Below are positions 773 through 63,008 of a stretch of DNA of 64,000 nucleotides, in pieces. The DNA is from Tubiluchus corallicola (lineage: Eukaryota > Animalia > Priapulida). The notes under the pieces are model-generated. The model was not told where the DNA came from. It worked only from the letters and a program-made list of their open reading frames with translations, and searched no databases. The position numbers and the translations under genes were made by a program. Each line of letters opens with the position of its first letter. Within the stretch, counting starts at the first letter, position 1. The stretch lies in the NCBI GenBank assembly GCA_030141605.1, contig JAQGDQ010000007.1:731173-795172 (forward strand), in the 5' to 3' direction.

Positions 773-910
773 TTACTCTTCGTCTCCACCGTACATGTCG
801 GCAAGCTTGTGAAATCGTGGTCCCCAGTTACTTAGTCCCTCAAATTCTAAATCTTCATCATCTGTGCCGCTGGCCAGCGAACTGAGTGATCCTGCTGTGC
901 TGCCACACCC
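773..910 (-). CDS. CadN: Coding exon 37 (C-terminus and stop)
   Basis: Hand translation [15 protein letters not shown]...[17 protein letters not shown]. Confidence 0.94.
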
Positions 911-30900: not shown

Positions 30901-33900
30901 TTCATACAAGACTTCAAAGAAACTCAAACATCAAATAGGTTTGTTAAAAGTTTACATCTTTAGTTACATAAACCTGAAAATATTAAACAGCTTGTATCAC
31001 GAAAGTTCAACCACAATAATGCTTGTAATGCCTCAGATGGCACCACAAGACAAAACAAACCAACAATTTTTATTTTCAAGAAGCAGATAATTAACATCAT
31101 ACAGTACACAGAACATACCAGTTATCCGTACGGTGAAGGTGCAAACTCCTATCAGTTCTCTCGGCGCCCGATCCGTAGCCGTAACTGTGATCTGACGCTC
31201 GCTCCTCTCCTCGCGGTCAAACGGAATGCGCGTTTTAATTAAACCCGTGTCCTCGTCAATCCGGAACGGCTCCTGTGCAACAGTGTCGCGCGATTCAATC
31301 TTGTAACTGACACGCCCATTGTCTCCAGTATCGTCGTCCGTCGCCGTTACCTAAGCAACAAAGTCGATTAGCTGATCGGTAAGCGAGAGATGTACTTAAT
31401 GACACCAGGGAGTCACGCAAATGGAAACTAAACTTTCAGAAGAATCAAGCATTCACTGGGGAGGAAAACTCAAAGAAATTGGTTTGATTAACAGGCAGTT
31501 CAGCAAAGAGTGATCTCAGTGAAACTGTGTAACAAGGAATTAGTTCTTACAAGTAAAAAGTAACATACAGAATAATTTCAATAAAAATAAGGTTTGCATG
31601 TAAAAAGAGAATGTCCAACAAAATCAGCATTTTTCAATCTAATCTAAAGCTACACAAGCATCTATCGTTACAAAAATTCTTGCCTCTCCAGTTTTTCATA
31701 CAGTTTAACACACTGCACACCATAAAGCACACAAAGGCCTGTTCAAACAGATGTTTGTGACACGGCCAGATCCTAGCTCATTGTCAACGATTATAGCAGA
31801 GGTAACTCAGCAATTCGGGCCTACATACATCCTCCCTCCACGAGTTAAATAGTTTAGTTTTACGCATGATGCTATCTGAGGCAAGTATTGAACCTATGTG
31901 ACTCGCACAAAGCGTTGGAGCTCTACCACTAGGCTACAGAACTTGTCATGTCGGTTTAACGGTTCAAACAAAATGGTGAGTTTTAAGATTTACGCTAATT
32001 TTTTATGAATGAGAGTGGCAAACACTCCCTTCACATTTGTAACAACATTTGAAGCCCTTGAAATACTTATAAGACTGTATAATATATATCAGGCTTGCAA
32101 AATATGTATTTCATAAGGCATACTGTTATATATCATACAGGTTCATACAGGTGGACCATTTAAGCATATGAACAAATGTGATCAAACAAAAAGACTGCAT
32201 CTCAATTGTATGAAAAAAAGAATTGTCAGAAACACAAAATATTTATTTTCACAGTAAACTACGCATAACCCGAACACCTCGGAAATGGAAAATTTGTTTG
32301 AGTTATATGAAAGTACGAGTTAGACAATGCTCATAAGAAAACAAGATTGAGTCGCTCATCAACGCTGGACAATACACTAGTAACACTACAGCTTGTGAAG
32401 ATAACAAACTGAGCCTTTACTCAAATATCAAACAACAACTTTTATGAATAATTAAAAGTAAAATGACTGCTCCATCTCTACTGTAGTCTGAGTAACATAA
32501 TTAATAGAATTTGGCAGTAATAATATTGTGATCTAGTTATTAAACCACATTCATTAAGCCATGTTGTGTTCAGTGTTCTGCTAAAATCCTAGAATTTTTG
32601 CTGAAATTAGCAGTTAAAATCGTGATGCGGTGCCTACTTTCGCATAAGATTTCTCTGCTAAGGTTTGGGAGGCTGTTCGAGACAAAGGAGGTAATTTCAA
32701 TCAGATTCTCAAGAAGTGAACCTGGAATTCTATTCGAGTAAGGTGATAATTCGAGTTACACGATGTTTGTTAAAGGGAAAAATGAAAGGGAAAATCTATT
32801 CCACGAGATCTGTTCGAGATACGCAATAACTTGAGTTATACATAGTGTTTACCAGAGAGGTGAGCAGTGTTTGCTATGCTGGAAAAGGCTGCAATAACAC
32901 TAAGTAAATATATAACAAGCACACTGAACACAGGCAGCAGATTCCGCTGGAAACTAATATCCATTACCCTGCACTAAAACAAGAAGAACGAGTAAAACAA
33001 TTCAAAATAAAGCAATATTCAGCTAATGGCCAGAACACGTTGACAATGAAACCATAGCAACTGACTCCAATATGGTTTTATTATCACTACCGGAATATTG
33101 CATAAGCAACAAAAATAGCAAGGCAGGACTAGCGTTCTTTAAAGTTGAGAGGAAAAAAATTGAAATCTAAATAAGCTTTACCTCTACTTATATTTTCACA
33201 CTTTTTACAACACTCAGCTTCAGCAAATTGCTTAATTAATGTGAATAAACAGACTAAAAATTAATGATTAAAAAAAATAAAAATATCATTTATCATTTTT
33301 AGATCTACGCTTCCCTCACTGTAGGCTACAATAAAATGACCTTTGTATTATTGCGATTACTTGACTAATAAAATGGCTTTGTTTCCCAAAAGGGGGCACA
33401 CGATTATGGAAAGGACAAGGGAGTATGACCAAAGTTAACAATCGCTGAACGGATGGGTGATTATCTAGGTTCTGGTCCCTCTGCAACTAACTGCAAAAAG
33501 TAAATCTGCCACTTACTGCTGGATTCCAGCTTGCAGACACTTAGAATTTCCGGACCTTGAAAGTCGAGGAAGTAAAATACAAAAGCTCACCTGGATGACG
33601 TTATATCCTGCAGCTGCATTCTCCGGAACAGAAGGTGAATATTGGGAACAATTTGGAAAAACGGGTTTGTTATTGTTTACATCAATAACCCGCACGGTAA
33701 CCAGTGCCTCTGAATAATGTTCCGGAGATTCCCCAGGACAACACGATCCGTCATCTTTTGCAGTCACATTTAACGTATAATATGGCTCCACCAGGTGGAC
33801 ATCATGGTCTTTAAGCCGGAGCACTCCAGTGTTAGGGTCAATCTTAAACTCTCTGGACACAAGCTGACCGTCCTTGAACTGATAAGTCACTTTGTCTCCA

Positions 33901-36900
33901 TCTGGATCTATGGCATTTAGGGTTGTGACTAGTGCTCCAGGTTTAGCATCTTCTGCCACATTTGTCATGTAAACATTTTGAGAAAACCTGAAATGAAACA
34001 AAAGTATCAGTTCAGTAAGATAAGAAATAATCACTTCCCGGTTTTTTCAAATAGTTAAAAAAGCATTTTCAGCCCTGCAGAGTATAAAAACATTAATGCC
34101 AGAAATAGCGGATGAAGGTGGCCTGCCACAAGAAAAAACTTAGGACAAAAGAAATATCAACAGCACTCAGGAAAACAGCTGCTATCGTCAATGCTTTTCA
34201 GTAATCTAAAGAGGCGATTTTTATCAGCGAGGAAGCTGGTTGCCTAGCAACACCTAATGATCCAGAGTGCAACCGCTGGCAACTAGAGTAATTAACACCA
34301 ATTACGAGAATGTCACTAAAGACGACGAGACTGGCATGTCAGTTTAACACACAATGTAAGTTTACAGTTTAAACGCAGAAACTTAGTTCCTAAAATCATT
34401 TTCAAAATAATGACTTCCATTCACCAGTCTCATTATTACTACTAATTTTACTTCGTTTAAAGACTCAGAATGTCAAAATGTTAGCATTACTACAGGTTCC
34501 AAAAAATTACTTCAACTATTTTGTCTTCTGGAATTTTCTATAACAGACAAAAACGCTGTCCAAGAAATTGTATACAAAAAGATAAATAGTTGCACAATGC
34601 AAATAGCTGGACGGGAATAAGACAAAGCACTTGCATTACGTACAGCTGTTAAAAAAGTCAATATACTCCCATAGCATCCAAATGATTTCTTATACCAGGC
34701 TCACCGTTGTCAGGCAGTGTCCCAGACATTACATCAATACATTTGCTAGTTTCCCACCATCATCATACAGAAAGTTTAATGAAGATTTTATAAGGTTGTT
34801 GCAATGATTTACGATGAAAAAATAAGTTTACAAACAAAAACAAATAAATTTTTTTGTTATTCTGTTCTAAAAAACTTAAATTACATGGCACTTGTTTATT
34901 TTTTGGTTTTCTGTAAGCATTCATTTCTAAAGTTAGGGGAAGCAAGCACATAAAAAGGTGCAGTGACACATACCAAACAATTTTTGCACACTGATTATAC
35001 ATTTTAATTTTGTGTTTATAATCAAAACACGATAACGTACCTTACAGGAAGAACTTAAAATATGTGTATTATTTAACTGTTTTAATTATAAGTTTAAATG
35101 AAGAGCTAAAAAATGTTGAAAGGATGCTAATGTGCTTGGGGGAGTGGATACCCCCCCCCTTGTTCCCCTATTAGCTACACCAATAGATATATTTAATCAT
35201 GTCATTACAAAAACATACAATGTCAAAATGTTTTCATAGAAAAATACATGAATCTGATTTCATATTAGTACAGAGTTTTTGAGAAAACACATTACGTGTT
35301 GTTTTTATGTAGAATACATGTATCTTGGACAAATTCATTTTTCCACTTTATTCAAACTTAAGAAAAGCTATATTTAAAAAATGCTTATCAATCAGAGCAT
35401 TGTTTTGAATTGTATTACATATTTTAACCAGCTAAAGTTTCCAATTCCCTGCACACAAGCAATTAGTCATGAAGTGGATTAAGATTAGGGTAAGGGTTAG
35501 GGCTAGGGTCAAGGTTAGGATTAGGGTAATTAAATTCAGTGGAAAATTGAATTTAACAACATCAATGAAGCAACAGAGTGCAATGTAACCATAGCAACCT
35601 ACCTTGGAGCCTCATCATTTTGATTCTTCATGAAAATCCTTACCACAGCCTCTGACTTCAGCTGCGGGTCACCGCTGTCCCAAGCCGTGACACGGAATTC
35701 GTATTTCCGACCTGGAATCTCGTAGTCCAGCTTGCGCTTGCTGAGGATGGCTCCATCTTCATTTCGAATAGTGAAGTTTTGATTGTCAGTAAGTTCGTAT
35801 GTGATGCGACCATTCTCGAAGCTATCCGCATCCGTTGCCGTTACTAAAATCAAAACAAATTAAAATCTTAACCATGTCTATTATGAACCAAAGAAGGCAA
35901 GTACTTATCTTAGTAACCTACCTTAAAAAAGAAAACTTAATGACTAACTTTTGTTTAAAAGAGTTCGCTTACTAGAACCTCAATATTTAGGGCTTAATGT
36001 TTAAATTTTCAAAAACACCTTATCCCCAGTGGTAGTTTTATGGCTTCTAAAGCTAAGAGAATGTGACCACAGATGATCTCTTAAACCCTCCAACCACCCA
36101 TAGCATAAGAAGTTCACAACCAAATGCTTCTCAATTAAAAAAACTGATTTGCAAATAACGAATCTTTGATTACTTAACAACAAGACAGTCTCAAAACTAT
36201 CAGCAATTCTTTTTGTGACTGTATGGTATTCACTAAAAGAAACAAACGAAAATGAAACTTTGCTACAAAGGACTTCATGATAAAGCAAACAGCTATGAAG
36301 AGTAACCATGGTTTGTAAGTTTTTGAGGATTTGACTTAAAGTTCAGCTCTGTAGTCTGCATGGCATTCAGCGGTAAATCATGTACAGTTGTGCACAAACT
36401 CGGTTAAGCCAAACTGATTACCACCAGCTTATCACTGCCTGACATACTGTCGAGAACTACGCCAGTATGGCACATCTCGAGTTAAAGTGTTTTTCACTCT
36501 GTTTGCACAAATTTGCCCTTGCAAATTGGTTCTTGAGTGTAAACATAATGTTAAATTTGTATCGTAATCAATCAAGTCTTTCAGGTGTAATTGTCATTCA
36601 AGTCTATAGTATACTGGCATCATGCCCAATTGGCCATGTAATTAGCTGAATTAGGCTTCTTTCATAGTTCTATATACACACACACACATATATATAGTAA
36701 TTTTTCTGTGCCGAAGGCCTAGCTAGCCAGGAGTGACACAGCGCTGACAATCACTATGTTGCTACTTTGCTCATTATCAAGGATGGCCATGGGCACAGTA
36801 TAATAGGTATGTCTAAAGTTTTTCTGTATTAGACTTAACGTATGCATTTAATGAAAACGTATCGTAATTCAGTCATTTTGTAATTTCTTTTCTCTTTACT

Positions 36901-39900
36901 AAAACGTAGAACTAAAATGTAGGTCTCTTATAATAGACCAGTAAACCTTTATTACTAAACATTTACTAATTATTCTTGTTTCATCGCCATTGTAAATATC
37001 ATCTTTGTAAAAATGTAATATTCGTTAACAATTATGCACATACTTGTTTTCGATATAAAAGTAAAAGTACGTACATTTAGAAAATTGCTACAAATTAAAC
37101 TCAATTCAATATTTGTTTGCACCGAAAATGCAAAAGTAATTGAATCTTGGGCATTCAGTCGCCCAAGTTTTGCTCTCCCGCCTATTTTTACAAAATTCAA
37201 ACTTTTTACATAAAGTTAAAAAGTGTGTGGAAAAAGCAGTCAATTAAACTGTTAAAATCAGATAAAATACTTTCGAAGAATAAAAACCAACCATTCATCA
37301 TAATAAAATTAAGCGTTTTTGACATGATGCCTAAACCCCCTTCCGCTTGATTTTATGTTTCAAGTGGTAAAATTAAGCGTTTTCAACAAATACTTTCTAA
37401 TAGTTCAAAATGAATCACCCTTCTTTGAAAACGGTGCTGTAGCTTACCAGCTAAGATCATGCTTCCAACGGGTAAGTTTTCATCAACATTTTCTTTAACG
37501 TATTCGGGAAGGTTAAACACGGGAGGGTTATCATTCACGTCTTCAACTTTTACCGTGAGCTGAAAAAATAATTTACACATAATGAAAAACCAGCATTTTT
37601 CTACATTTAACAAGGTGGGGCTTTTATTTAGAAATTAGTATACAAAGTATGGCATATACAATATATGCTATATGATTATCGATTATACGTTTTCAAGCAC
37701 TTTCCTTAACATTTCATTACAGTTTTCATGAACCTGGGACTAATGTTGAAAAGATCTTTAGTACTTATAACCACTCAAAAATTGTGCCATGGAAAAAAAG
37801 CAAATTTGAACCTTGAGCATTATTTGTAGAAATGCTTTTGTAGAAATGCTAAAATGACTTATACAATTATTACTTCCCAATTGAATTTTCATATTTTATT
37901 CCAGTTTTGAATTATAGTGCTGCATATGGAAACTTATAAGAATATTTTCTAAACTTTTCTAAAGCAACTAATGCATGCAAGCAAAAATGATACATATAAA
38001 ATGATAGGGCTGTTTATAAAATATAAAAACTGATTTAATTCAATCTAATCTAATAAAAAATTGCACTGTCTACTCAAGAAATTATTTGAAGTCCACAAGA
38101 TCCAAACCGCCATTTACACCTGTCACAGTAGCACAAACACTAGTCGACATCAACAAATGACATCAAAATACTATGGGCAAAAAAGTTTCAGTAAGCTGTA
38201 TTAAAAACATATATTTCTAACATTAATTTATACAGGCACTTCAAAGCACTTATTATTAAAACAACACAACTTTTATTAAAACTTTAATTTACAACTGTTA
38301 AAAAATGTTGTAATGTTTGGAGATGTTTTTTAATACAATTGTAAATTCAAGTTTTAATAAAAGTTGTGTTGTTTTAATAAGAAATCTTTGAATTTATTAC
38401 TATTTACAATCTTGATTTTTAAAAAATAAATGTAGAAAAATTAACTCGGCTACGCAGTACATGCAAATTAACGAAAACATAAAACCAGAATTGAACATGC
38501 CACTAAAGTGTGGTTTCTCGGAGAGTAGAACTACATTTTTTTAATTAAGAACATTCTATATACTTGAACAAACTCATTACTACTTAGTTAAATCAGCCTT
38601 AATATTATATTCCCCAGTCCCGACAGATTCAGTACATTTCTTTTCCTCTGTTAACATGCAATTAAAAATTTACACGACATGCTTTATTGCATGCTTGGAA
38701 TGGATGGAAGCATGCTAATAGCTTTTAACCTCTTTAAGGGCAAAGAAAAGGCTATTTTAAAGTATGCTCCAAAAAACTTCCCACACAAAGTTATATTAGA
38801 AAAGAAAATGTTTAATAATTTGAGATATTCGCGCCACCTGAAAAAACGGCACTGCACTGCCATCCCAGTGTGCACCACTGATTCAGCAAAAAACATGTTA
38901 TTGATGTTAACGACAATATAAAGTAATTACAACTTTTTCTTAGTCAGTTTACTACTAATGGTCTGATTATTTCTTCAAACCTTATGCAATAATATCTAAA
39001 CTTATTCGAAATGACTTACCCTCAAAATGGCTGGGCCTAACGGGAGTTTAAATTTTCAAGTTTTATAGAATGTTACTGTTAACACAAGACCTGTATGCAA
39101 TAAGGTAGCAAGCTTTATTTATGAAAGCGTGTTTTCTTGTGCTTTAAAATAGGCTTATTTGAAATAAATGATCCACAGCAGTATTTAAAAGAAATACTTC
39201 TGTTCATATAACATTTATTTTCAGATTTATATTCACTAGCACGTTATTAGTTACTCAATGGCTAGAGTCCAGCATTGTGCACACTGTAGGCTCTAATGAC
39301 TGTGGCTTGTTTACATGTCTATAAACTAGAGAATACTAGTCTTGTTTACCATGTGCATAGATTTGACTTCAATAAATAAGCCACCATACCAGCCCATAAA
39401 TAATTACAGGAGAGTAGGTAGAGTGGACCAATAATAAATGGGAGATATTTTAGGCACTTGATAGAAATCGGCAAGTCTTATACATTTGGCCTCACTGATT
39501 TGCTGGATGGATACAAAATTGGCCTTTGAGATGGCATTGTAAGCCATGTGACAAAGTAATTTAACCCTGAAACAAAGAAGTTCTAAACTCTAATTTTCTA
39601 TATATGCAAAAATAAAAAAGAGAAGGTATCTGGCTATTCAGACGCAAAATATTTTAAGCACAAAACAAAAAAATATGTATTTCCTAAACACTGACGATTA
39701 AGGACACAGCCAAAATTATTTTTTAGACAAGTGAATTTGATATAACACTCTGAAAACAAATCAGATCACTATAAAATGAACTTTTTAGGAACTTATTATC
39801 TCAACTAAATCAGAACCCTACAAGTTGCCATGCTAGTCTGTCCTGCAAATCTTTACACAAAAAGGCATGTATATGTACAAATCTTTCTTGATTCTCAAAA

Positions 39901-42900
39901 TAACAAAAAAAAATGCTTTTGGTGCACTTAGCTGCATTCACATAGTAAACTGATGTATTTTTAATGTGCTTCATAAGCACAGTGCAAAAACCTTTATCAG
40001 GAGTTTAAACCACAACAATGATGTTAAACTTAGAGGGTATTGCTCGCGAAAAAGTATTAAAAAAATTAATAATAAAAAAACTGCAAAAAAGATAACCCAA
40101 TTTACTCATCAAGATATACTTCAAAAGTTGTGCCAAGTTTTTACTGCTGGAAAACCAAGTTAACACGCTTTAAACATGAATTTGCAAGGCATAAATCAAA
40201 TTAGCATAGCAGGATTACTGTGAAATTCTTGCCATGACAGCTTGCAAAATGAGGAGATGATATTGCATTCAAATGAGCTTGCATCCATTTCATACACTGC
40301 TGAACACAAATTATAAACGGTAATGGGATGAATAATTGAGGGAAGCTGAGGAGCACAGCGAGATTGAGTAACACGTACGAACGAAATGCAAAGAAATTCA
40401 AAAGCCTGCATCCCAAACTCAAAAATTTAAAGGCCTATATAATTCCAACAGACTCTGAAGTTTCTTTAACACATTATTATGATTATACAAGTAATTACAA
40501 AAAAGACTTATAAAGTAAATAACTTACCTTTTACTCACAAATTTCGCACAAGCGCATTGCCATAAAGATTGCCATTATTTGCAATTTTGTATCTTTGGTA
40601 TAAGTGAGTGTGAACGATGTGTGTAAAACAGAAAGCGCCTTTGGTTACCGATCTTTCTTTACCAATCTTTGGTAACCTTGTGATTGTATTTATCACGTCA
40701 TTCGTCTCGCGCAACTAAAAATGGCGGTTTTCCAAATTTAATACCGCTAACAACGAAGTAATAAAAACCAAAAGAAACAAGTTTTACAGTAAGTTCATAA
40801 TAAAAAAATGAATATTAGTAATGAAAGTGGGATTTTAAGTTGTAAAAGCTTATATTATAGTGAGAGTTAGTTTGACTTTAAATAATAGATTTTTAATGAT
40901 TTATGAAATATGGATTTACAAAAAAAAAGTCTGAAACTGGAAAACGAAAAACGAAATTTGTTAAAAAAATCCAAGAATGGAAACCTTTTATATAACACCA
41001 AAAAAGGAAAAGGTGCTACAAAAACCCAAAAGACTAAAAGGCTGTTAAATGCCAAAAATGAAAAGTTAACATGAAAAATTCCAGAAATGAAAGGTTATTA
41101 TAAAAACATCTACATTTTATAAGAAGAATAAGCTCCTGTAAAACTGTAAAATGAAAAGCATATATACAAAAACTCCACACAAATGAGATGCTATTGTCAA
41201 AAACTTCTAAGAAAATAGCTATTAAGAAAAGCTTTTGAGGATAAAAGACTAATATCCAAAACTTACAGAGAGACGAGATACAGATTTTTTGCACAAAAAA
41301 TATTCAAAAATTAAAATGTTATAAAAAAACTTCAAAAAAAAAACTGTATAGAAAAAAATGTTATAAGAAAAAAAACTACAAAGAAAATGGATATTACAAA
41401 AAACATTAATTAGAATTAATGAGTCAACAGAGAAAAATCAAATAAGACATGACATTCTCAATACAAAATTACGTACTACCATACAGAATACCAAATACCT
41501 GCTAAAAATTAATTTTTTTTACATTTTGCATTCCGAAACATTAATAAATTTAAATGTGAACAGAATAGCAATGACGGTTTGATATTCATTGTTAGAAAAG
41601 AAAGTTTAACTTACCAGCGTGCTAGCAGATAGACCTCCTTCCTCCTCTGCATGGACCTGCAGTCGGTACGTCTTTGGTTGGTTAAAGTCGTCAAAGTCCA
41701 GCTTCTTCAACAGCATCACCTCTCCAGTCAGCGGCTTCCGAATAGAGAACGCGTCCGAAGTGTGACCGCTCTCGGTCGTCACCTTGTACTTGATAGGTTT
41801 GCCAGAAAATGACTTGGCCTTGACCTTGGTGACACTGCAACGACACAAAGGTCACATGTGCACAGGAGATATTCTAGCAATGGTGGCTTGTTGGAACACA
41901 ATGTTCAAGAACTGAACAAAAATTGGGAAGAAAACAACAGGAAACAAAAAAGATCACTGCGGGAGTTTTTTCATCATGTTGCATAATACGAGTGTCTGCA
42001 GGCATGTGGTGTTATTATCACCACAGGCTCTTTTAGAAATTATCTAAACGTCAAAATGACAACAAAAAGAAACTACATCAATGAAAATGACTGGGGAAAA
42101 GCAACAATAAAAGAATGTAGGAAGTAAGAAAGCTGGATGGCCAGATTAGCATGCTCGCCATCAAAATAAGAAACTCAGATTTGCAAATGTAATTATGCAT
42201 GCAAACTGTTCTAATAATTTCAAATCGGTTCCGTTACCAACTCCTGAACAAGTCAATATTGTCGACACAAGCAGAAATTAATGCAATGCTTGCCATGCTG
42301 ATTTAATTCACTTTCAAACAACTCGGGGGATAATTAAAGATTATTTCAAATTTCACATTTCTTTATTTCCAAACTTCAGTGATTGCAAAACGGCGATACT
42401 GAAAAATATGCCACCACGTCAGTGAAAATATCACCAGTTTTCACAATTGAAAATGCTTTGTTTATTCACAGTAATAAATTGAACGTGTTTTAAGATGCTC
42501 AACCATGTTTCAAGTATGCTTCAAAGTGCAAATTAAACTTGCAAAATTACTGCTTATATCGACTAGTAAGCACTTAACCAATTCAGCACAGAAAATACCA
42601 CCATCAAAATCACAGTTAGCACAAAGAAGGCAAGGGCTATTAAGTAAAACACTCACACAAGGAATCAATATATAGCATATATACATAAAATACGCGATAT
42701 ACAGTGAACATATATCGCACGCTAAAGGCAGCAGCCTTTAAGCAGTAGATGCGTTTGTTTTCGAATAGTAAGCTGTCTTCCATTTCATGACCGGCCCACG
42801 TGTTTTGTCTGCGGATGCTAACACAAGGGGGCACCAGGGTAGCAACACCGCCTACACCGCATAAAACTTACCTCGAGGAAAGTTGCACGTTGTTGCTGAA

Positions 42901-45900
42901 AAACAATGACAGCAGTTAGTGGATGGGTGTGGGGGGAGGGGCGGTGTGGGCGGTGCCACACTAGACAAGCTTGCACGCGAGTCGGTCAGTAAAATGAAGA
43001 AGCTACTATTGCCACCAACAGTACCTGAACTGGTAGTCTGTCTCAATGGGAGATCTTTGCAAAAAATAGAAAGAGACGAAATTAAAATGATGATGCCAAA
43101 AACAGTTTGCCAGAACCAATACAGTCATGGTGGCACGTATGACTATACATGGTCGATTACCGGGTGCATTGTGGTCAGGCGGGAGAAAGGCTGTTGAACA
43201 AGCATCGCGGCAGAGCGAATCGACTCGAATTTTACATACACACATCTAAGTCTCAAGCTGCTCTCGCTTAGGAAATAATTTCTGATGGTAAACATGCTGT
43301 ACTTATTAGTAAAAAACTGTTAGTAGCAAACAATGCGGTGCAGCGTGCACCTCAAAGTTACGTTCCATTGCATACTCATACAGTACCTACCATGTAGTTT
43401 AAAAATAGTTAACAATAAAAATAACCACATTAAAACTTAGTAGTTGCAATTTCAGAAATATAATCTATCACATTGATACCACAATAGAAATACCACTTGG
43501 AAATCACAATAGAAGATAATGTCCTACATTTAGAATGCTATTATTTCAATATGAAAACTCGTGCATATTTTTAATTTAAATCTACTATTTTTACATAAGT
43601 TTTAATGTAAACTGTCTTTTCATATCTGTTTTAAAGATTAATTGTATTTAGTTTAACAAATGAAATTTTTTGCATGTATATAATTAATTTATTATCAACA
43701 TAAATACCTTTTTCTAGATAAAGCTACCACAAAATTACATTTCTTCTACCAAAAAAGGAGCTTTCAATTTTTACCTGAAATTCTAAACTTGCGAACAAAT
43801 AACAACAGAAAGTTAACGTTTACTATTTTAAATCAATTGTCAAAATGAGTCAAAATTGTAATGAACGTTTCAAGCAAATTTTGACTATATTCATATCATC
43901 TGAAACTACAGAATTTTCAATGACTGCAGAATTTTCAATGAATAAGTGACTAACAAACTTACAGTGACTGAGAAGGTGCATTTTCTGGAACAGTCTGGTA
44001 ATAATCGACCGAGTAAAACTGCGGAGGCCGATCACCGACTATAATTGAAAGGGTCTCCAGGTCGGACTTCTGTGGTACTCGATGACCATTTTTATCAAAT
44101 GCCACACCGTTTTTGTCAATGGCAACAACCCGCAACGCGTACTCCATCGGTATACGGAACTGTCCTGGACGACGTGTGCGGACATTTCCATTGTATTCAT
44201 CCACTTCAAACGCATCTTCGCTACCTTTATATAAAGAACATACATGATACAATGAACCCATGAAACTGATTTAATTACAGTGGATGGATTCTGAGAGATT
44301 AACACGCCTTGAACCACTTGAGAACAGGTTGTCCCACTCACTTAGATTAATGAGTTTATTTGATTATCTACAAAACTGCAGCAATATAACAAACAACACT
44401 TTATGCAACTAGAAAGAATGGCTAAAATACGAACTAGATGTACCATATATAGGATTGGCTAAGATGGCATTTTTAACAAGAGTTATTGGCAGTGAAAGAA
44501 TCCATGTACATAAACATGGTAATCTGTTGCCGTAGCATCATAACAAACGAATTTATAGCTTTTTGTCGGAATTATAACACGATAATTCAGAAAAATTATA
44601 TAAGAAGGGCATAGGTAAATTGTTATTCAAGCAAATGTGAATTATAGCTCATTTTTGTGTTCAGTCTAGCAACAAAATTTTCTATAGACCAGACCAGACA
44701 CTAGAAATTGGTGTTTATGTAAAAAACTAGTTATCATAATTTAGATAGGGCAGATATGTAATGACCTCTGTTTGCTGAACAATAGTTATTGAAGTGTAGC
44801 TACGCTGTTCGTATCATTTTGAACAAGTTAGCTGAATTGTTCATGGTGTATAAGTGTCACACAAAAACGGAAATTAGGTACTTTAAAGGTCCTAGGAGAG
44901 TGAGTTAATATAATACAAGTAATTTTCATTTTATTTCTCAAAAATAAAACAGGCCACATTATTATGGTATAAAAAGAAAACTTGAACTATCACCCACAGT
45001 CCCTCTCTCTCTTTCTCTCTCACTCTCAAAACAGAATTTTAACATTTCAGCCTTGTAAACAATTAAGCTTGCACTCAAAAAACTTAGGTCAGCCCCAGAG
45101 ATACAGGGTTTGATTAAGTTTTGTTAGGTTGGGAAAAATGTATCAATCTCATCATGAATGTCTGTATTGCCTAGCATTGCATTGCCTTTTAACTTGTGAT
45201 CTTAATGATCATAATGATTTATTAGCTAACCGTAATGATTTTATATATTGTGACTATCATGTTTACTGCTAACTTTTCATACCTCAATACCGCTAAGATT
45301 GTTAACATTTAAAACATATTGCCACAAATATACGGCTACCAAACATGGAGATTAGATGAGAAAATTAACACTCTTGCTCTTTTCATGCAATACAGAAGTC
45401 AGAAAACTGTGACAAAATTACCAAATCTCCTTTACAGAACACACACACACATATATATATACATATATTACGTTTATAGCTGATATGTTGCCTCCTCACA
45501 AACAGTTCCAGAAGCGATTTATTAAGCTTTATTTTTAGTGCTTAAATAACAGTAATCACAATATTTTATTTATTTTGTTCAGCAAGCTCAGTATTGTTTC
45601 ACTTCAATTATGGGATACGATTTAGTGACAATCTCTAACCAATATGGAATTGACAGTTCTTGTCACGAGTTTATATCAAAAGTGCTGCATCTCATTACTG
45701 GTAAAATGCTTAATATCAATGACAATTAGCTGGCAGTTGTTACATTTATAAAAGAAATTTCATGAAGTACAGAAACCAAGTATTTTTATTTCTTTAGAAA
45801 GTCTCAACTATAGGAAATTTTAAATTATTGACCACTTGTTGAGACCAAAATGCTAACATAATTGAAGGCTATGGTTTATTATTATTTTACTTTACTTTTA

Positions 45901-46952
45901 ACAAATTAACAAACTTTTTTCCTTTAACATGTACAGCTTGAACTAATTTATTATTATATTATAAACAACACCTTTTGTTGTTTTTGCCTGTGTATTTATT
46001 GTACCATTTATGAGTACGAATAAATGGTATAAATAAATAATAAATAAAAACGCAGCTACTAAGACAAAGAAAATAAATTAAAGGCCGTTGTCTATTAAGA
46101 ATGTCACCTCTCAAGTACTGTACTTTCATACAGCATAAAGAATGTTTCCACAATTTTATATTTCAACCATCTTATGATCACTCTACTTCATAAGTTGTTT
46201 GAATATGCGAAAACGAGTATAGCAGTAATACATACTCAAATCCAACTCAATCTTATATCTGATGTCCGCATCTTTGTCCGCGTCCGTGGCTTTGAGGACA
46301 TACACCAGCTCCCCCTGTGGCGCATTTGCACTGACGACGGTCTGAAATGGTCGCGGTGTGTTGATGAACACGGGCTTCTCGTCGTTGACATCTCGGACAT
46401 TGAGGACAACGGGTTGAACTTGCTCGACTGCAATAAAAACACACGTTCGTAATGAGCACGACTGAAAACGGAATTACAGGAAGGGAAAATAGATAGGATA
46501 ATTAGGGGTCCAAGTTCCTGCGCGTGGCGGTAAATGACTCTCCGGGGAAATGAAAACTTGTGAGCAGATTCTGCTGAGCTGCACGTCTGTTTCAGATTCC
46601 TACGGAATGTCACCAGACATCATCCGAGAAGCTGAAAAATGAGCAGGGAAGTAAATTGCATCGAGTGCTTTCCACAAGATAGGAGGTTTAGGGAAAATGT
46701 TTTCGAAGGACTTTCAATCATGATAGATAAAAACAGTAATAAAGACGCCAGGAAGAGAATTTTATATTTCTCTTTCCGAAATACAAATTTCCAGTGAAAA
46801 ATGGTAATCAACCAAGGTTTAATTAACAATATGTTTTTAAGTACAGTAGATTGTTATTAAAAATATCTGTGATCCGTGTGCCCACAGAGAGCATTAATGA
46901 AGGCTTATGTAATGGAACAACTTTTCAACCCACTGTTCTAAAGTTAGTAAAA

Positions 46953-47051
<99 letters not shown>

Positions 47052-50000
47052 TAGGTACGTAAGTATTTTATATATCGCCTATATACAATATATTCAATAC
47101 AAAAACCAAAGTTATTAGTTACAAAAAACAAAGCAAAATGACACGGCGATTAATAATTTAATACAGGGTTGGTTGGCGAAAAATTCTATGCGCTTGCAGA
47201 TTGGATAGATGTAACGTAACTGGTAGATAAAAACATCTGATGATGTCTGACGAACTATTAAAGAGAAAGTCTCACAGCCAATGGCATTCAGTTTAACTAA
47301 AAATACCACGGATATCATACAAAAATGTCAAGTACAGGGCAACACAAGAATAAGATCTGAAAAAAGAACCCCAATTCAAATTATTTCAATAACAAATAAG
47401 CTATTAAACTTCGGGTGCAAAAAAGGCTATTGGGTTATCAGCATTTGCCTGAAAACTGTCTTAAACGACTTTTTCAATTCTGTCGTCTTCGTGCCGTGTG
47501 TACATGATGTACAGAAAGAAAAACAGACAAAAGAGAAGCCCGCTCTAGACGTGAAACAGCTTTCCTCCACCCGCCACGCCAGAGCTAATCGATCAACAAG
47601 AGAAGACGTTGCCTCTACTCATGAGTCATCGCTTGGGAAGCCAGAGTAAAACCAGCAACAACAATAACCTTTCTGAGAATAGCCAATTACACTTCACAAA
47701 CATCGACGATTAGAAGAGCGTGGATCGATACCCATCAAAGGAAAATAAGAAACCATAACAAGAATTTGAAGGAGCGAGTAAACAACCAAGTATAATTAGG
47801 CGGCTGCCAAACGGCTATAATTCTAGATTTTTCGGATTCTACAGCCCTGGTATTTTCGCACGTTTTTGTGAAACGAGCAGGCGGGGTGCGAAGGTAATTC
47901 ACATGGGTCATAAAATGCCTGCAAAACATTTAAACACCAGATATTCCCAAAGGAATAAAAACCGCGAGGGAATCGTCCACAGACATCTGGCGACAACGAA
48001 AGAAAATTTTCAGGCGATAATTGCATTTTGTGAGCGACAGGTCTTAGCTCTATGAGTGATGCTGCCGCTGAGTCACGTACTTCTGAGTAAATAATGAACT
48101 TTAAAGGTGAAGAAACAGCATCAGACAGCATTTCTACTTCCTAGCAGCAGTACATATTATCAATAAGTAGTGTTTGTACACTAGAAACTATGAAGTCGGT
48201 CTAGAACCTCTAGGTGATCAAGACGCTAGAGGGTTAAAGAGCTTGAAGCAAGAGCTGAAAGAGGCTAGAAGACTAATTAAAGTCATGCGCATTGCACACA
48301 GTCATTTGTCCAATTTCACAATTTTTAAAAAGTATCTCCGGATATCCATTCCTAGCAGTTAATTTTTAAAAAGAATAACCTACTTAGGTGGATGAAATCC
48401 AAACATTCGTTCAAATCAGACGTTTCTGCTTGATCTATTTTCCCATCCTGAGTAGAAAGTTGGATCTGGTGTAACTAAATTTTAGTGGAACACTGAAGCG
48501 GAAGGTCAAAGGCCACATATAGTTTAAAAAAGGTGGCATCTAGACAAATGTAAAGTGATTTATTTAAAAACTAGGCACTTTTCACGAAGAAACGAGGACT
48601 TTCTAGAGGCTGGTTTAAGACTAACGAACGGCGAAAGATTGGGAATGAAGAGAGAGAAGGAAACATTGAACGTCAAGCTATTATTTCCAAACGTCGCAAG
48701 CCTAATTCCGGAAATAAGTCGTTTTAAATATACACTGCATTTACAGCTTAGACAGAATTATGAAAACTAGTAAGCTAATGGGGTACAAATCTGCCAAAGC
48801 ATACGAGTTTAAACATCGATTTTAAAGCAACGCCTAGAATAGTTTCGTAAAGTGCACAGAAAACCAGCAGCGAAAAATTCTGAAAAATAACATCTTCAAA
48901 CGAGCTAAGCATAACGACACTTACATATGATACTTTAATATAGAACCAATCATTGTCTATATCACAAACTTATGTAGCGTTTATGTAGCGTCCGGAATGC
49001 GGAGGTGGATAACGCATTCCGGATGCTACATAAGCGCAATTTTAACTTGTATTCATGGAATGTTGATGATTGGACAATGTGACGTATGTTTGTCTGTAGC
49101 TTTCATTTTCTTATAAGTGGGTAAAGATAGCTCCTAGTAAGGGGGTACTTAAAACAAATTGCAATAGAATTTTTCTCTTCAGATTCTGTTAGAACATGGT
49201 TTTAGGTGCCCTCAGCAAAGATCGGCCAAAATCGGCTTTGGTATTTTCGAGATATACGCATAAATCCAAGATGGCGCCCACTATAATCGCCTTATAATAG
49301 TATTGTGACGTCATCGTGACGTCACATTTGAAAAACGATCCTATTTTTGGAATCCCCGAGTGTCCTATCAGTCGATAATACATATTTTTCATCTCGGCTC
49401 GATGGTTTAGGAGATATAACTGATTTTTGGCCCTAGTATGCGCCATCTTGGCTTTATACATATATCTCAAAAATACCAAATCCGAGTTTGGCCGATTTAT
49501 TGTTGAGGGCACCTAAAACCACATTCTAACAGAATCTGAAAAGAAAAATTCTATTGCAATTTGTTCTCTATGTTCCTTGTTATCTTTACCCGCCTGTTAG
49601 TGGACTTTACTCTCTTTTGTTATCAGTGCCTCTCATCACTACAACAGATGTTTCATCAATGATTAGTAAAGTATCATGGCTTACTAACTTACATGGCTGA
49701 CTAAATAAACCCGTACGAAACACATATATCATAAAGACTGGATAAATTTTGAATAAATGATAATTTGGAGTAGTTTCAAAAATGTAGCTGGCTGAACTTA
49801 ATTGACAAATCACATAATAAAGCTGGTAAAGGAAATTAAAGAGTTCGTCAAAATGGAGTGAATTTTGTTGTAAGGTTAGGCCAAGCCTTATAATGCCACT
49901 GGCTTGACAAAAATCTTAAATACTGAATGTAGTTATCAAGGAGAAAAACCTCTCTCGAGTCTCGCATTCATCATTTCACAGAATAGAACCCCCGTATGAA

Positions 50001-51650
50001 AGAGCTAGATACAATTACCTCAGTGTATGCAAACTCGATTCTCAGTTGACTGAAAAGGGTTGCCAGCTTTGACAGCAGTGCGTGACGTCAATACAAAGAG
50101 TTGCTTCGCTAGCTGACAAGTCACCACAGAAACTTTATACAGACACCGTGCAGTTGGGTAAACAGAACGCCAAGTCAGCCCCAATAATTCGTGCTAAGAA
50201 AGCACTGGCAAGAGTAGATAAACAGGATTTTATAAAATCCGTATGACCGGTTGGAGGAAAATTGAATGGAACTCAAAGCAAATAACGAGGCTACTTATAG
50301 ATAAAAAGTTTTCACGGGGGTTCAGCGGAGTGAAAAAATAAATTGGACGAAGTAGCCGCTTTTAAATTCGTATGGACGAAATGCTTTGCTATGAGTCCAT
50401 AACATGCCAGGACTAGTGTAGGAGAAATAAGTACGGTGATAGAGAGTAATGAGTCCGATGAGTGTGGTGACAAATAATAATGTTGGTGTTATTTTTGTAC
50501 ACTTAGGAAGTGCTAAAAGTACTTAAACCACAGTAAACGGTTGGAATACGACATTAGTGTACACTTAGGAAGTACTTAAACCACACCAAACGGTTGGAAT
50601 ACGACATTAGTGTACACTTAGGAAGTACTAAAAGTACTTAAACCACAGTAAACAGTTGGAATACGCATTAGAAACACAAAATTTCGCAACTTTAAAAATA
50701 CTAATTTTTTTCACACTGGCGCACTAATACGCTGCGGCACGTTCACATAGAAAATAAGAAGCTGGCAAATATGAACTGTTAGTAGTGCAGCTGCACCTGA
50801 GTATTAAGCACCTCCACATTAAGCTGCAAATGACACTGCAAAATTAGTATTAGACCAAATATGACAAATTATAAAGAAGAAATGTATCGCTTCAAATTTG
50901 ACCTGCGATGGAATAAAACTAAAATTATTATTGATTAATTTCTGAAACTAAAACCGTTTTTCCCCTTATCATTCTTTTGCAACTTATTTATTTCCTCTTT
51001 CGTTTTTTTCTCACAACTACTACATCCTTCTCTTTAGCAAGATTGCCCCTTCCCCCACCAAAACAAATCAAATCCTTCACAAAATTTTAAATTCGATCTC
51101 GTTGAGCCGCGCTTGTTCTCTTCTACTCGACCGAGTTGCTCCCTAGATCTCATCAGAGATATGAAGCTACTTCCTGTCTCTCTCCGCCTTATATCAAGAT
51201 GCACAGAATCCTTGTGGCTCTTCGTGTATCGATCCACAGCCTCATTTACTGACCAGCAATTTCATACACTTCACTTCCACACCCCGGATTACATTCGATA
51301 TTACTAGCAATCGAGTGCTGTTCAAGAACACTTCGCTGAGCCAGTGGCATTCTGCATGGTTTAATGCTTGCGCCCATGCTTTTATTCAAGTATACATCAT
51401 TATACTGGACATCGATATTAAACTAGTAAGTACAGTGGCTTTCAGGCATAAATCATTGGACCTGCTGAGTTTAGTTGAATATAACACATATACAAAATTA
51501 ATTATTATCCTTCATGCTAAGACTTCAGAGAGTTCAACACAAGGATTATTGTTGTTGTTAAATGAATTAGTTGCTTCACTCAATCCTTCCCTCTCTCTCG
51601 CCCTTCCTCTCTTTGTCTCATTACTCAACCCTTCCTCCTTTTCTCTCTTG

Positions 51651-51712
<62 letters not shown>

Positions 51713-54700
51713 ATGAAGCCCACGGCACTTCTTTCAATTTTCTCGTTTTCAGCAACATTATTAATTCATAAAATTTCACGCATTTTCTCTGAGGTGCTCC
51801 TAATACCAGATAAAAGCATCGTAAAACATTTAAGCGTCAACGACAAGTAAATTCCGGATAGATATTTAATGAATTTTTAAGGAATGACGACGTCCAAAGA
51901 CAGCAGACAAAACATCCCCATCCGCTAATAGCCCGTACATGTAATCAGCTGCTCCAGTACATGACAGCTTCAATCAACAACGCTCCATCATCAACGACGA
52001 AAGCAAGAGTTACAGTGTAAGCAAATGGACGGACGGCAGAAAGTTTATTATCGTTATGCCTGCCCTAATGGCTGCCATGGCATTACTGTAGCAATGCATA
52101 TTATACTCACTGAGGCCAGCTTCTGTACTGTTGCTGCTGCTGCTGAATCTCGTGCTCAGTGGTATTGATTCTACAAAGGAGGCAGCATGGGTATTGATTG
52201 TTGAGTTTACAGACACGGTCGGTCGGTCGCAACTCACACTTCCCATACGACACGAGATAGCAGAGCCGTTCAACGCCCGATCCACTTTAATTTCACACAC
52301 TGATGAATACGAGGCTTACGATCACGTTCTTTGGTTACAAGACAAATAATACGGCCACGTAATTAAATTCAGGGATAAAAGTATGGGCTGGCGTCTGCAT
52401 TCCCGGTGTGTTGGAGCTCAGTGTATGTTGAAGACGGAAATAATGTTCAGGGCAACAATATCAGGTTATTTTCATTATTTTGAAAAATTTTCTGATAATC
52501 GACATAAAGCAATTCTGAGCAATGTTTTGAAAAGGATTACCGTAAGTGACAAGGATGATTTAAACGCCCAAACAACAACAGCAGAGGTTTTGAGAAAGCA
52601 AAGGCAACAGCAAAACGTTGACCAAGTGCACAATGAAAAATAGTGAAAAGTACTAGAGTAAGGGATTAGTAGTATCCTCGACATGCAGATAGCTGTGTGA
52701 ACAAATTGTAAAGTGACTACTGATAGTTAGGAACACCAAGCCTGATAAACAAATGGATAGATGAACGCCAGTACTTCACTTCAGCGTGTTTTCAATGAAT
52801 TGTCCTGGCATAGTCGCTTCTGCTTTGTGTGTTAAATATCAGCTTAACCACAACAAGTAAAAAAAACTACTATTATTGAAATTAGTTTACAAAAACCCAT
52901 CTCCCAGTGCTTCTTTGTTTAGACTGGAGCTGTTTTTGATGCTCTTTCTTCATTGACTTAAACATAATAGCTTCTGCTTTTCACTAGGCTTAAAGGACAA
53001 GTAAACCTTTTACTCACATAAAGCCAAAAAAATCGCCTCGATATTTTGTGTCACCTACATAAACCCTTTACTTACATAAAGCTAAAAAAATTCGCTTTGA
53101 AATTTTGTGTCACCCACATACTACTGCATTATTGTGAGCAGAGCTTTTATCTCCAGCAACGCTGTATAAAACTTAAAAGTTTAAAGTCCCGCGATGACCG
53201 TTAGGCCCAGCCATTTTGACGGTAAGTCATTTGAAACAAGTTTAGATAAAAATTTGGTAAGGTTTGAAAAAATAATCAGAGCATTCGTAGCATCTAATTA
53301 TGCAAAAGTATAACTTACTTTATCTTGTTAATAAGTTTAATAATGTTTTTGGCGAATCAGCAGTGACTCGGAAGTTGAGTCAGTGACATTTTACCAGTTG
53401 GCGTGAACAATAATTTTTTTTCCTAGTTATAAGACTTTGCAATAGGTAAGCGTACTGTAAGGTACAAGAAAACTTTGTACAGAACGTGTTTTGGACATAT
53501 TCTAAAATTAATTTCCATCCTTTAACTTGCAGAGAATACTATTAACCTATGTGCACTTTGATTTGCCGCTAATTTTCACAACAAAAGTTGAAAACTATTT
53601 CTGCATATTATTTGGTGATTCATTCCACCAATGAAATTTATACTCGACTAAGTTAGTAAAAACATCTGAAATTTTGATAATAAATGTGGACACGTAGCAT
53701 AGTATGAATAAAACGATTTCAAATGGAATGTTTATGCATTCATAAACGTCAGTAAGAAATTAATTACGATGCACGTCAAAATAAATTATAATTCTTATTG
53801 ATTATGAAGGTGATGACTCTCAGATGACTTTATACGCGCAGTTACGAAAATGATGGCTGACCTAGGATGATGATACACACGGGACATCTGGGAAGTCACT
53901 TATCCCTCTTCCCTCATTGCTTAAATAGCTGACTGCAATCTATCAGGAAGTAATGTATTTTTTTTCAGAGAGATCTAAGCCAAAAACCTTTTCACTGGAA
54001 AAGCTAAAGACAAGGCTTTATGCAAAAAATATATACATATTGCTTTTGCATTTTATTCTTAATGAGCAATGAAAAAGCATTATAAAGTTTTCATTTTTTG
54101 CGAAATCACCTACGTCTCTAAAACGGGGTTTTCATTAATGTAATTAGGAATAGTTAGCCTCTGCGAAGTTCATCATGTTGTCGCCCGGTCTCGATCATCA
54201 TACTCTAAAATATGATGGATGGCAATGATAATGATAAAATCACGATGAATTTTCAATCAATTTCGTATTGTCTACCAAACATGGACACTCTTATTTTTGT
54301 CTATATTGCCTTTTTTACTTTCTCGTATTCTGAGATCTTAGACTATGTAGTAAAATATTATAAAATTCACCAAAGTATGAAAAGTATTCTCTTACATGAT
54401 CTGATTGGAGGTTGCTTTGTCGGTGCCACCCACGTGGATCCGCCTAAACACTCTCTGCAGAGATGCGCCATTACAGACGCGCCTACACCACCTATGCAAT
54501 GATGCGCCATGATAGATCCACCTACACCCCTGTACGGTGATTCGCCACTGTGAATCCGCCTCAACCCCCTGCGCAGTGATGCGCCACTCTCTCTGTGTGA
54601 CTTTCCAACGCCAGGCCGGTTTGTTTGCAACAAGAATGCTAATCCGAACAAAAACTAGCCAATTCGTAGCTAGGAAGAAAGCAATAGTATGCTGGCAAGT

Positions 54701-62788: not shown

Positions 62789-63008
62789 TGCTCTTATCAC
62801 AGCTACACTACAGCAACCGCTTCTACTATAGAAGCCTGAAAGTAAAAATTAATATTTACCAGATAACATAAATGATATTAAAGCTATAGTAATTAGGTAG
62901 CTCTACATAAAATTAGAAGTCCAAAATTAGAATCAGAATTAAAACTTAATGTTCAGTCACTACAAATCTTTAAACTTTATGAAGATGTTTTGCAACCTAA
63001 ACAACACT

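What the first reader, a model, noticed from the sequence alone, without database searches (positions are those of the whole stretch)
42872..42895. 24-nt candidate microexon with neural-microexon-like architecture in intron 3
Seen: the minus strand reads ACTAAC (ideal branch point)-TGC-tgtcattgtttttcag|24 nt|GTAAGT (consensus donor). It is phase 2-2 and stop-free, changing [13 protein letters not shown] to [21 protein letters not shown] just after the PE calcium-binding motif of a cadherin repeat. The flanking intron is GC-richer than background, and (T)GCATG motifs lie downstream at ~42150, ~42198 and ~42295. Established: bilaterian neural microexons regulated by SRRM3/4 (eMIC) have a nearby UGC and a strong donor, and GCAUG is the Rbfox site. 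Inference: a tissue-specific loop insertion that may tune adhesion. The ORF track does not show it.
Basis: partly seen in the sequence, partly recalled or inferred. Interest (0 to 1): 0.8.

Follow-up and report, generated by a model that had tools for sequence, protein, structure and literature searches.

The report
Hairpin-caged microexon in neural cadherin
An intron of an invertebrate's nerve-type adhesion gene (N-cadherin) holds a 24-base stretch with strong splice signals, sitting in the loop of a long predicted RNA hairpin; it is likely a normally skipped mini-exon that nerve cells would splice in to add eight amino acids, a new example of a known kind of regulation whose inclusion has not yet been seen in RNA.

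Summary
Segment 42895-42872 (minus strand) is a stop-free, phase 2-2, 24-nt AG..GT unit in intron 3 of a full-length type III (DN-type) cadherin. Its donor outscores all 32 of the gene's own donors. It has a CTAAC branch point (0 of 32 ordinary acceptors do), UGC right behind it, and a 63-nt AG-free zone.

New here: it lies in the loop of a long, GC-rich, apparently single-copy intronic duplex (arms 43010-42941 and 42860-42764). This is the second-strongest such pairing in 26 introns, behind one obvious MITE.

Inclusion is not shown. The one RNA-like run (a relative, about 90% alike) joins exon 3 straight to exon 4. No insert was found in 120 arthropod orthologues, and no like element in 33 distant orthologous introns. 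The Rbfox motifs are not enriched.

Best reading: a lineage-specific, default-skipped cassette microexon, looped out by RNA pairing and likely switched on in neurons by an SRRM/eMIC factor, adding 8 residues at the start of strand B of EC3. About 75% a real exon, about 50% for the whole mechanism. It is a new member of known kinds. The scan had not noted it before.

The parts
42872..42895 (-). 24-nt candidate cassette microexon, phase 2-2, stop-free, adds 8 residues
   Evidence: inclusion not observed
42896..42919 (-). 3' splice region: CTAAC branch point (A about 20 nt before the acceptor G), UGC at 42914-42912, short U-rich tract, CAG; AG-free for 63 nt
   Evidence: acceptor score above 16 of 32 of the gene's acceptors; exact CTAAC in 0 of 32
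42865..42871 (-). 5' splice site GAG|GTAAGT
   Evidence: score 11.6, above 32 of 32 leave-one-out donor scores
42941..43010 (-). 5' arm of the predicted intronic duplex (C-rich inner helix 42955-42941)
42764..42860 (-). 3' arm of the predicted duplex (G-rich inner helix 42860-42846, 14 of 15 complementary; bulge about 42841-42813)
43963..44224 (-). exon 3: C-terminal half of EC2, the EC2-EC3 linker lacking the DxNDN motif, and EC3 strand A with the PE motif
41615..41834 (-). exon 4: EC3 from strand B onward
41835..43962 (-). intron 3 (2,128 nt), at a phase-2 position shared with arthropod-type and annelid-like orthologues
42150..42298 (-). three GCATG motifs (one TGCATG); not above chance
776..62848 (-). 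host gene: full-length type III (DN-type) classical cadherin, about 33 coding exons

Best explanation
The 24-nt segment has strong splice signals and sits in the loop of a predicted intronic RNA duplex; it is likely a real but normally skipped cassette microexon that an SRRM/eMIC-type splicing factor would switch on in neurons, adding 8 residues to cadherin repeat EC3. Shown: the splice signals, the open frame, the complementary arms, single-copy depth over the element, the skipped form in a relative's RNA-like run, and the insertion point at the start of EC3 strand B. Inferred: (1) the arms pair in the pre-mRNA and hold branch point, acceptor, exon and donor in an 80-nt loop, which favours skipping despite the strongest donor in the gene; (2) eMIC acting at the UGC next to the branch point overrides this in neurons, where the branch point itself is predicted unpaired; (3) the 8 polar residues lengthen the A-B turn that follows the calcium-binding PE motif at the EC3-EC4 junction (cadherin anatomy recalled), and would alter the stiffness or surface of the membrane-distal part of the adhesive region rather than its known specificity site. 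About 0.75 that the exon is real; about 0.5 for the whole chain.
For: Donor above 32 of 32 of the gene's donors, median acceptor, CTAAC in 0 of 32 ordinary acceptors, 63-nt AG-free zone. It is the only one of 7 candidates in 47,446 intronic nt with both branch point and TGC; 0 of 2 on the antisense control. Null rates are 0.17 and 0.03 per intron set. The signature matches eMIC targets. Duplex: z -3.4, 0 of 200 shuffles; arm against arm -76.8 kcal/mol, 1 of 1,000 shuffles, second-ranked locus in 26 introns after a MITE, with the third at -56.8. The arms lie outside the splice signals, so this evidence is independent of them. No second copy in the window. Run X1 gives single-copy depth (4-10) over 42018-43349 while repeat-bearing bins reach 200-900. 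The only X1 difference in 314 nt turns a predicted U-G pair into U-A (a single event). GC-rich stems looping out skipped exons are known.
Against: No included form was seen. X2's contig joins 43963 to 41834 directly, although contigs drop minor isoforms, X2 is about 10% divergent and its tissue is unknown. 0 of 120 listed arthropod orthologues carry an insert (the best 120 of 551, ranked with an insert-free query). Of 33 partly redundant orthologous introns, 1 had a loose candidate and 0 had branch point plus TGC. The antisense strand folds as well as the sense strand (z -3.6), so nothing singles out RNA-level selection. In an untailored whole-window fold scan the locus ranks only 11 of 981 windows; the arm geometry was chosen after seeing the locus. 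The small hairpins that would hide UGC/acceptor and donor are not significant (328 of 1,000 exon shuffles). No UCUC-type long tract. The known fly CadN microexon is classed 'ASE', not eMIC-dependent. No genome is held, so Srrm234/eMIC could not be looked for.
Confidence: 0.5

Rival explanations
1. It is a real cassette microexon, but its control is not eMIC/neural. Inclusion would be set by the duplex itself (folding kinetics, a helicase or ADAR) or by other factors, in muscle, epithelium or a developmental stage.
For: The duplex is the most distinctive feature. The fly CadN 12-nt microexon is not eMIC-dependent in the published table. A TGC lies within 30 nt of 11 of 32 ordinary acceptors here, so UGC alone says little.
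Against: The branch point-UGC-AG layout and long AG-free zone follow the eMIC signature closely. GCATG motifs are not enriched.
Confidence: 0.22
2. It is a pseudo-exon: chance or relic splice signals in the middle of an old foldback element or an unrelated structured RNA, spliced at noise level or never.
For: No inclusion and no conservation seen. Both strands fold alike. The window holds real foldback elements. Loose candidates occur at the chance rate (7 seen at up to 51 nt, 5.2 simulated at up to 30 nt).
Against: No second copy in the window and single-copy depth in X1 at 80% likeness. The arms are broken into several helices with a 29-nt bulge and are the GC-richest intron sequence but one, unlike the near-perfect MITE. 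No target-site duplication seen by eye. No Rfam match. The frame is kept, and the signals sit exactly in the loop.
Confidence: 0.21
3. Only one of the two splice sites is used. Either the acceptor starts an alternative last exon (the frame stops two codons past the exon, giving a secreted EC1-EC2 fragment), or the donor ends an alternative first exon from a GC-rich internal promoter.
For: Read-through gives Arg then TAA. AATAAA lies at about 42466 and 42367. The region 43330-42700 is GC-rich.
Against: Both sites are good and 24 nt apart in frame. The nearer AATAAA is altered in X1. An in-frame stop lies just upstream, with no ATG or signal peptide for a first exon.
Confidence: 0.07

Closest known systems
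eMIC (SRRM3/4, Srrm234)-dependent neural microexons (bioRxiv 10.1101/2021.02.24.432780 = PMC8797185; bioRxiv 10.1101/2024.09.17.613571)
   Same: Short and frame-preserving, UGC between branch point and AG, CUAAY branch point, long AG-exclusion zone; strong donor as in mammalian targets. Targets turn over fast between lineages, which fits its absence in distant orthologues.
   Different: Neural inclusion and eMIC dependence are untested. No UCUC-rich long tract. Fly targets have weak donors. An enclosing duplex of about 55 pairs is not part of the published signature in the passages read.
Arthropod N-cadherin micro-exon 7a' (12 nt; PMC2655722; DmeEX0003665)
   Same: A frame-preserving microexon that adds a few residues to an EC repeat of the same gene family.
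   Different: Different intron: a 4-residue indel, likely 7a', lies about 498 residues after the EC2-EC3 linker in an ant's isoforms, this one 21 residues after it. 7a' is tied to mutually exclusive exon 7a and is classed ASE, not eMIC-dependent.
Exons looped out by GC-rich intronic complementary regions (Miriami 2003, seen second-hand in PMC7404189; PCCRs in PMC8052449; AGAP1 microexon stem-loop in PMC12871342)
   Same: Complementary intronic arms on both sides of a cassette exon; looped-out exons are included less.
   Different: Here the pairing is only predicted, with no covariation data. The loop is very tight (80 nt) and holds just the splice signals and the exon.
Drosophila DN-cadherin / type III classical cadherins (PDB 3UBF, 3UBG, 3UBH; PMC8325961, PMC5473995)
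   Same: Host gene colinear with arthropod CadN from prodomain to cytoplasmic tail; same EC2-EC3 linker without the calcium motif; same intron position.
   Different: About 45% identity in EC2-EC3; no arthropod orthologue examined has an insert here.

Membership tests
eMIC-dependent neural microexon | 3-27 nt and frame-preserving (size limit recalled) | tested here: met
   24 nt, phase 2-2, no stop
eMIC-dependent neural microexon | UGC between branch point and AG | tested here: met
   TGC directly after CTAAC, 19 nt from the acceptor end (criterion)
eMIC-dependent neural microexon | strong CUAAY branch point and long AG-exclusion zone | tested here: met
   CTAAC (0 of 32 ordinary acceptors); 63 nt, longer than 29 of 32 (criterion)
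eMIC-dependent neural microexon | long pyrimidine tract with alternating UCUC (an enrichment, not an absolute requirement) | tested here: not met
   short U-rich tract after UGC, C-rich run before the branch point, no UCUC repeats
eMIC-dependent neural microexon | actually spliced in, with higher inclusion in neurons | tested here: inconclusive
   only the skipped joint, in one RNA-like run of a relative kept as contigs; no raw or neural RNA available
eMIC-dependent neural microexon | inclusion depends on an eMIC-bearing Srrm234/SRRM3/4 | not testable with these tools
   no genome held; needs knockdown or minigene
eMIC-dependent neural microexon | conserved in close relatives | tested here: inconclusive
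   only distant orthologues reachable: 0 of 33 introns, 0 of 120 proteins
Orthologue of arthropod CadN micro-exon 7a' | same intron position | tested here: not met
   +21 against about +498 residues from the EC2-EC3 linker
Exon looped out by an intronic duplex | stable complementary arms on both sides of the exon | tested here: met
   (prediction only)
Exon looped out by an intronic duplex | pairing conserved by compensatory change or shown by probing or mutation | tested here: inconclusive
   one structure-consistent allele in X1; no homologous arms found
MITE / foldback transposon | many genomic copies | tested here: not met
   no second copy in 64 kb; single-copy depth in X1 at 80% likeness; whole genome not available
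MITE / foldback transposon | near-perfect terminal inverted repeats with target-site duplication | tested here: not met
   best ungapped arms 27 nt at 74% and 15 nt at 93%; no clear duplication by eye; contrast
Type III classical cadherin (host gene) | long EC array, NC/Ig-like domain, EGF and two LamG domains, transmembrane segment, cytoplasmic cadherin tail, colinear with CadN | tested here: met
   best PDB hits are DN-cadherin 3UBH/3UBF

The most novel reading that the evidence does not exclude
A neuron-specific microexon is gated by a two-key switch: a long intronic RNA duplex cages an otherwise optimal exon in an 80-nt loop, and eMIC acting at a UGC (predicted, weakly, to pair with the acceptor itself) releases it, giving neurons their own N-cadherin with a remodelled EC3-EC4 junction. 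It would be an independently evolved third microexon site in type III cadherins, in a lineage where neural microexons have not been studied.
Probability: 0.25. Interest if true: 0.62.

Novelty: new member of a known kind. Interest (0 to 1): 0.4.

Why it matters
If real, it extends the eMIC microexon programme to the ancestral-type adhesion cadherin of a poorly studied, likely non-arthropod invertebrate, and supports the idea that certain genes are hotspots that gain microexons repeatedly at different sites. More usefully, it is a compact 250-nt natural test case for an open question: whether RNA structure around a microexon sets its default skipping and its sensitivity to SRRM/eMIC. A 2026 preprint (PMC12871342) found no general conserved structure around 13 vertebrate microexons. 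All ingredients (eMIC signature, cadherin microexons, looped-out exons) are known separately, and inclusion is unproven, so interest is moderate.

Tried and rejected
No whole genome is held, so copy number of the arms and the Srrm234 gene could not be checked there. No RNA holder was listed for the stretch; the only RNA-like run came in by species label, so this blank is no evidence on expression. Two homologue searches with exon 3 alone found nothing (30 and 1 candidates, none scored). The third, with a springtail protein region, listed 120 of 551 hits, arthropod wherever named, so no lophotrochozoan, priapulid or deuterostome full-length isoforms were inspected. The ESM Atlas gave only generic cadherin clusters. 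Rfam gave no match at E<=1. Look-ups of earlier scan notes near this place, by words and by sequence, were empty. Recursive splicing was rejected: the segment starts with CAAC, not GT. Rbfox control is unsupported. CpG retention in the arms does not discriminate (o/e 0.74 against 0.67). Lower polymorphism over the element (1 in 314 nt against 13 in about 1,380 nt in five neighbouring X1 contigs) is too small a sample. The inner hairpins are not significant. Alignment A2 had one row in the wrong frame and was not used; A3 was folded instead. The included and skipped EC3 of this animal were not modelled, so the structural effect of the insert is open.

Full report
Observation. The minus strand at 42895-42872 is exactly as described: ACTAAC, TGC, a short U-rich tract and CAG, then 24 nt, then GTAAGT. 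Joined in a script between the flanking exons, both the skipped and the included form read through without a stop, and inclusion adds 8 residues after PENAPSQSL. A contig of run X2 (RNA by guess, about 90% alike in exons) joins 43963 to 41834, which confirms the intron ends and the skipped form. Further X2 joints confirm the neighbouring introns and put the start of exon 3 at 44224.

Host gene. The window holds one complete minus-strand gene from 62848 to 776. It is colinear with a 3,108-residue springtail neural cadherin and carries cadherin, DE-cadherin Ig-like, two LamG, EGF and cytoplasmic cadherin domains (6 of 8 exon frames submitted gave Pfam hits, the two around intron 3 did not). Exons 3 and 4 match Drosophila DN-cadherin EC1-4 crystal constructs best (3UBH residues 158-233 and 240-307). 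The gene is therefore a type III classical cadherin. Identity to arthropod orthologues in this region is about 45%, whereas the 120 listed hits are 78-98% alike to the springtail query, so the animal is likely not an arthropod; I did not place it further. In an AlphaFold model of a sea-spider orthologue (P0041, mean pLDDT 65, about 85-90 in this part) the insertion point falls between residues 265 and 266, at the start of strand B of the third repeat, after the turn that follows the PE motif. By recalled cadherin anatomy that turn lies at the EC3-EC4 calcium site, at the far end of EC3 from the calcium-free EC2-EC3 kink. DN-cadherin EC1-EC11 is the adhesive unit and EC7-EC9 holds the main specificity determinants (PMC8325961, passages). 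The insert is thus inside the adhesive unit but outside the known specificity site.

Is it more than chance? I built weight matrices from 32 donors and 32 acceptors of the gene, assigned by hand from alignments (a few acceptors are uncertain). The candidate donor scores above all 32 leave-one-out donor scores, and the acceptor above 16 of 32. None of the 32 ordinary acceptors has an exact CTAAC in the scanned upstream stretch (7 have CTRAY), and the 63-nt AG-free zone is longer than in 29 of 32. In 26 introns (47,446 nt) 7 frame-preserving candidates pass loose thresholds, and only this one has both branch point and TGC; the antisense control gives 2 and 0. In 200 Markov-simulated intron sets, loose candidates averaged 5.2 per set, so the other six are what chance gives. 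Candidates with branch point plus TGC averaged 0.17, and those with both sites about this strong 0.03. Thresholds were set after seeing the candidate. The features agree with the eMIC signature: long AG-exclusion zones, UGC near the acceptor and CUAAY branch points (10.1101/2021.02.24.432780, passages and section 15), and UGC between branch point and AG in about three quarters of SRRM3/4 targets (10.1101/2024.09.17.613571, passages and section 10). The three GCATG motifs are not enriched (3 against 1.05 expected, P about 0.09).

The GC-rich flanks are complementary. Folding 42760-43020 gives a long imperfect duplex between 43010-42941 and 42860-42764 (-89.5 kcal/mol, z -3.4, 0 of 200 shuffles), with most pairs at probability 0.9 or more. 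The inner helix pairs 14 of 15 bases, C-rich upstream and G-rich downstream, and neither arm recurs in the window at up to 2 mismatches. The 80-nt loop holds precisely the branch point, UGC, acceptor, exon and donor. With the same geometry slid along 26 introns, 2 of 1,995 positions reach the target's -76.8 kcal/mol. Among distinct loci the first is a near-perfect MITE at about 49170-49560, the second is this locus (-74.7 at the nearest grid point) and the third scores -56.8. Less favourable: in an untailored whole-window scan it ranks 11 of 981 windows, the opposite strand folds equally well, and the geometry was chosen after the fact. Against a transposon: no other copy in the window, and run X1, which covers introns and piles up to depth 200-900 on repeat-bearing bins, stays at depth 4-10 across 42018-43349 at 80% likeness. 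The single X1 difference in 314 nt (42812) converts a predicted U-G pair into U-A; this is one event and weak. Inside the loop the branch point is predicted unpaired, the UGC pairs with the acceptor and the exon end with the donor, but these small hairpins are matched by 328 of 1,000 exon shuffles. Rfam has no match.

Inclusion and conservation. No included form was found. X2 shows only skipping; contigs drop minor isoforms, the tissue is unknown and the source is about 10% divergent, so this shows that skipping occurs and nothing about absence. None of the 13 spliced orthologues among 88 representatives has an insert at the site, 12 aligning across it without a gap and one (P0066) with a deletion, and 120 of 120 listed full-length orthologues have the insert-free spacing (the best 120 of 551, ranked with an insert-free query). 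The intron itself is old: 33 of 72 metagenome loci hold the complete intron at the same phase-2 position, in arthropod-type and annelid-like genes (many are redundant; the other 39 lack the intron or stop short). One of the 33 has a loose candidate and none has branch point plus TGC. The element is thus lineage-specific as far as tested, which is usual for eMIC targets outside vertebrates but removes conservation as support.

Mechanism. The most likely reading is a default-skipped cassette microexon. The duplex would hold it in a tight loop, as for exons flanked by GC-rich complementary sequences (Miriami 2003, seen only as cited in PMC7404189, passages) and for looped-out human exons, which are included less (PMC8052449, passages). 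That would explain why an exon with the gene's best donor is absent from the RNA seen. An eMIC-bearing Srrm234 would promote inclusion in neurons through the UGC beside an accessible branch point. The protein would gain a polar 8-residue loop by the EC3-EC4 calcium site. Signals, frame, complementarity and position are shown; pairing in vivo, inclusion, neural specificity, eMIC dependence and any effect on adhesion are inferred. I put 0.75 on a real exon, 0.5 on the whole chain, 0.22 on a real exon under other control, 0.21 on a pseudo-exon and 0.07 on an alternative first or last exon.

Comparison and novelty. Microexons in N-cadherin are known: the 12-nt exon 7a' of insects (PMC2655722, one passage), classed ASE rather than eMIC-dependent in the fly table (PMC8797185, supplementary Table S2, the five CadN rows). 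Isoform comparisons place arthropod small indels about 125-141 residues before and 498 residues after the EC2-EC3 linker, against 21 after for this one, so this is a different site. A stem-loop around a neural microexon was suggested for AGAP1, without a general structural rule (PMC12871342, abstract and section 19). PMC5473995 (passages) documents ancient intron positions in type III cadherins and does not use the word microexon. My literature searches (listings only unless named above) showed no microexon at this site. The 2019 eMIC paper and Jin et al. 2012 were not read, and bioRxiv supplements were closed, so a catalogue entry for a related animal could have been missed. Earlier scan notes on this genome mention RNA-pairing control of Dscam exons; these are unchecked AI notes used as context only. 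Verdict: a credible new member of known kinds, with an enclosing duplex that makes it a neat test case; interest 0.4.

Noticed in passing
window 49170-49560: Near-perfect inverted repeat with arms of over 100 nt in intron 1 (z -15), a typical MITE; used as a contrast to the microexon duplex.
   Followed up: partly
window 38130-38520: AT-rich foldback sequence in intron 4, among the top folding windows; its bin has raised X1 depth (71), so likely a repeat.
   Followed up: partly
window 32888-32853 (minus): 36-nt candidate exon in intron 7 with a very strong acceptor (13.1) but no branch point or TGC, and an in-frame TAG in phase 0: a poison exon or chance.
   Followed up: partly
P0095/P0097, P0146-P0156, P0151/P0178, P0164/P0165: Arthropod CadN isoforms differ by 2-13 residues at the end of EC1, the position of the window's 15-kb intron 1, which suggests further small exons or shifted splice sites there; no convincing counterpart in the window's intron 1.
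   Followed up: partly
L016, L031-L033, L035-L038, L067-L070, L072: These orthologous loci read straight through the site of intron 3 (intron lost, or spliced sequence), while 33 other loci keep it at the same phase-2 position.
   Followed up: partly
L054 about 2370-2570: The acceptor and first codons of the exon-4 orthologue are tandemly repeated three to four times at the end of the intron.
   Followed up: no
L007 about 750-830: A decayed duplicate of the end of the exon-3 orthologue, with its donor, lies just inside the intron.
   Followed up: no
window 44225-44221 (minus): Exon 3 has two AGs 4 nt apart; frame and the X2 joint favour a start at 44224.
   Followed up: yes
window about 47010-47065 (plus): A (TAAG)n microsatellite that creates many false donor motifs.
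   Followed up: no
window 5289-5603: Intronic tandem repeat of about 39 nt that gives a repetitive 105-codon open frame.
   Followed up: no
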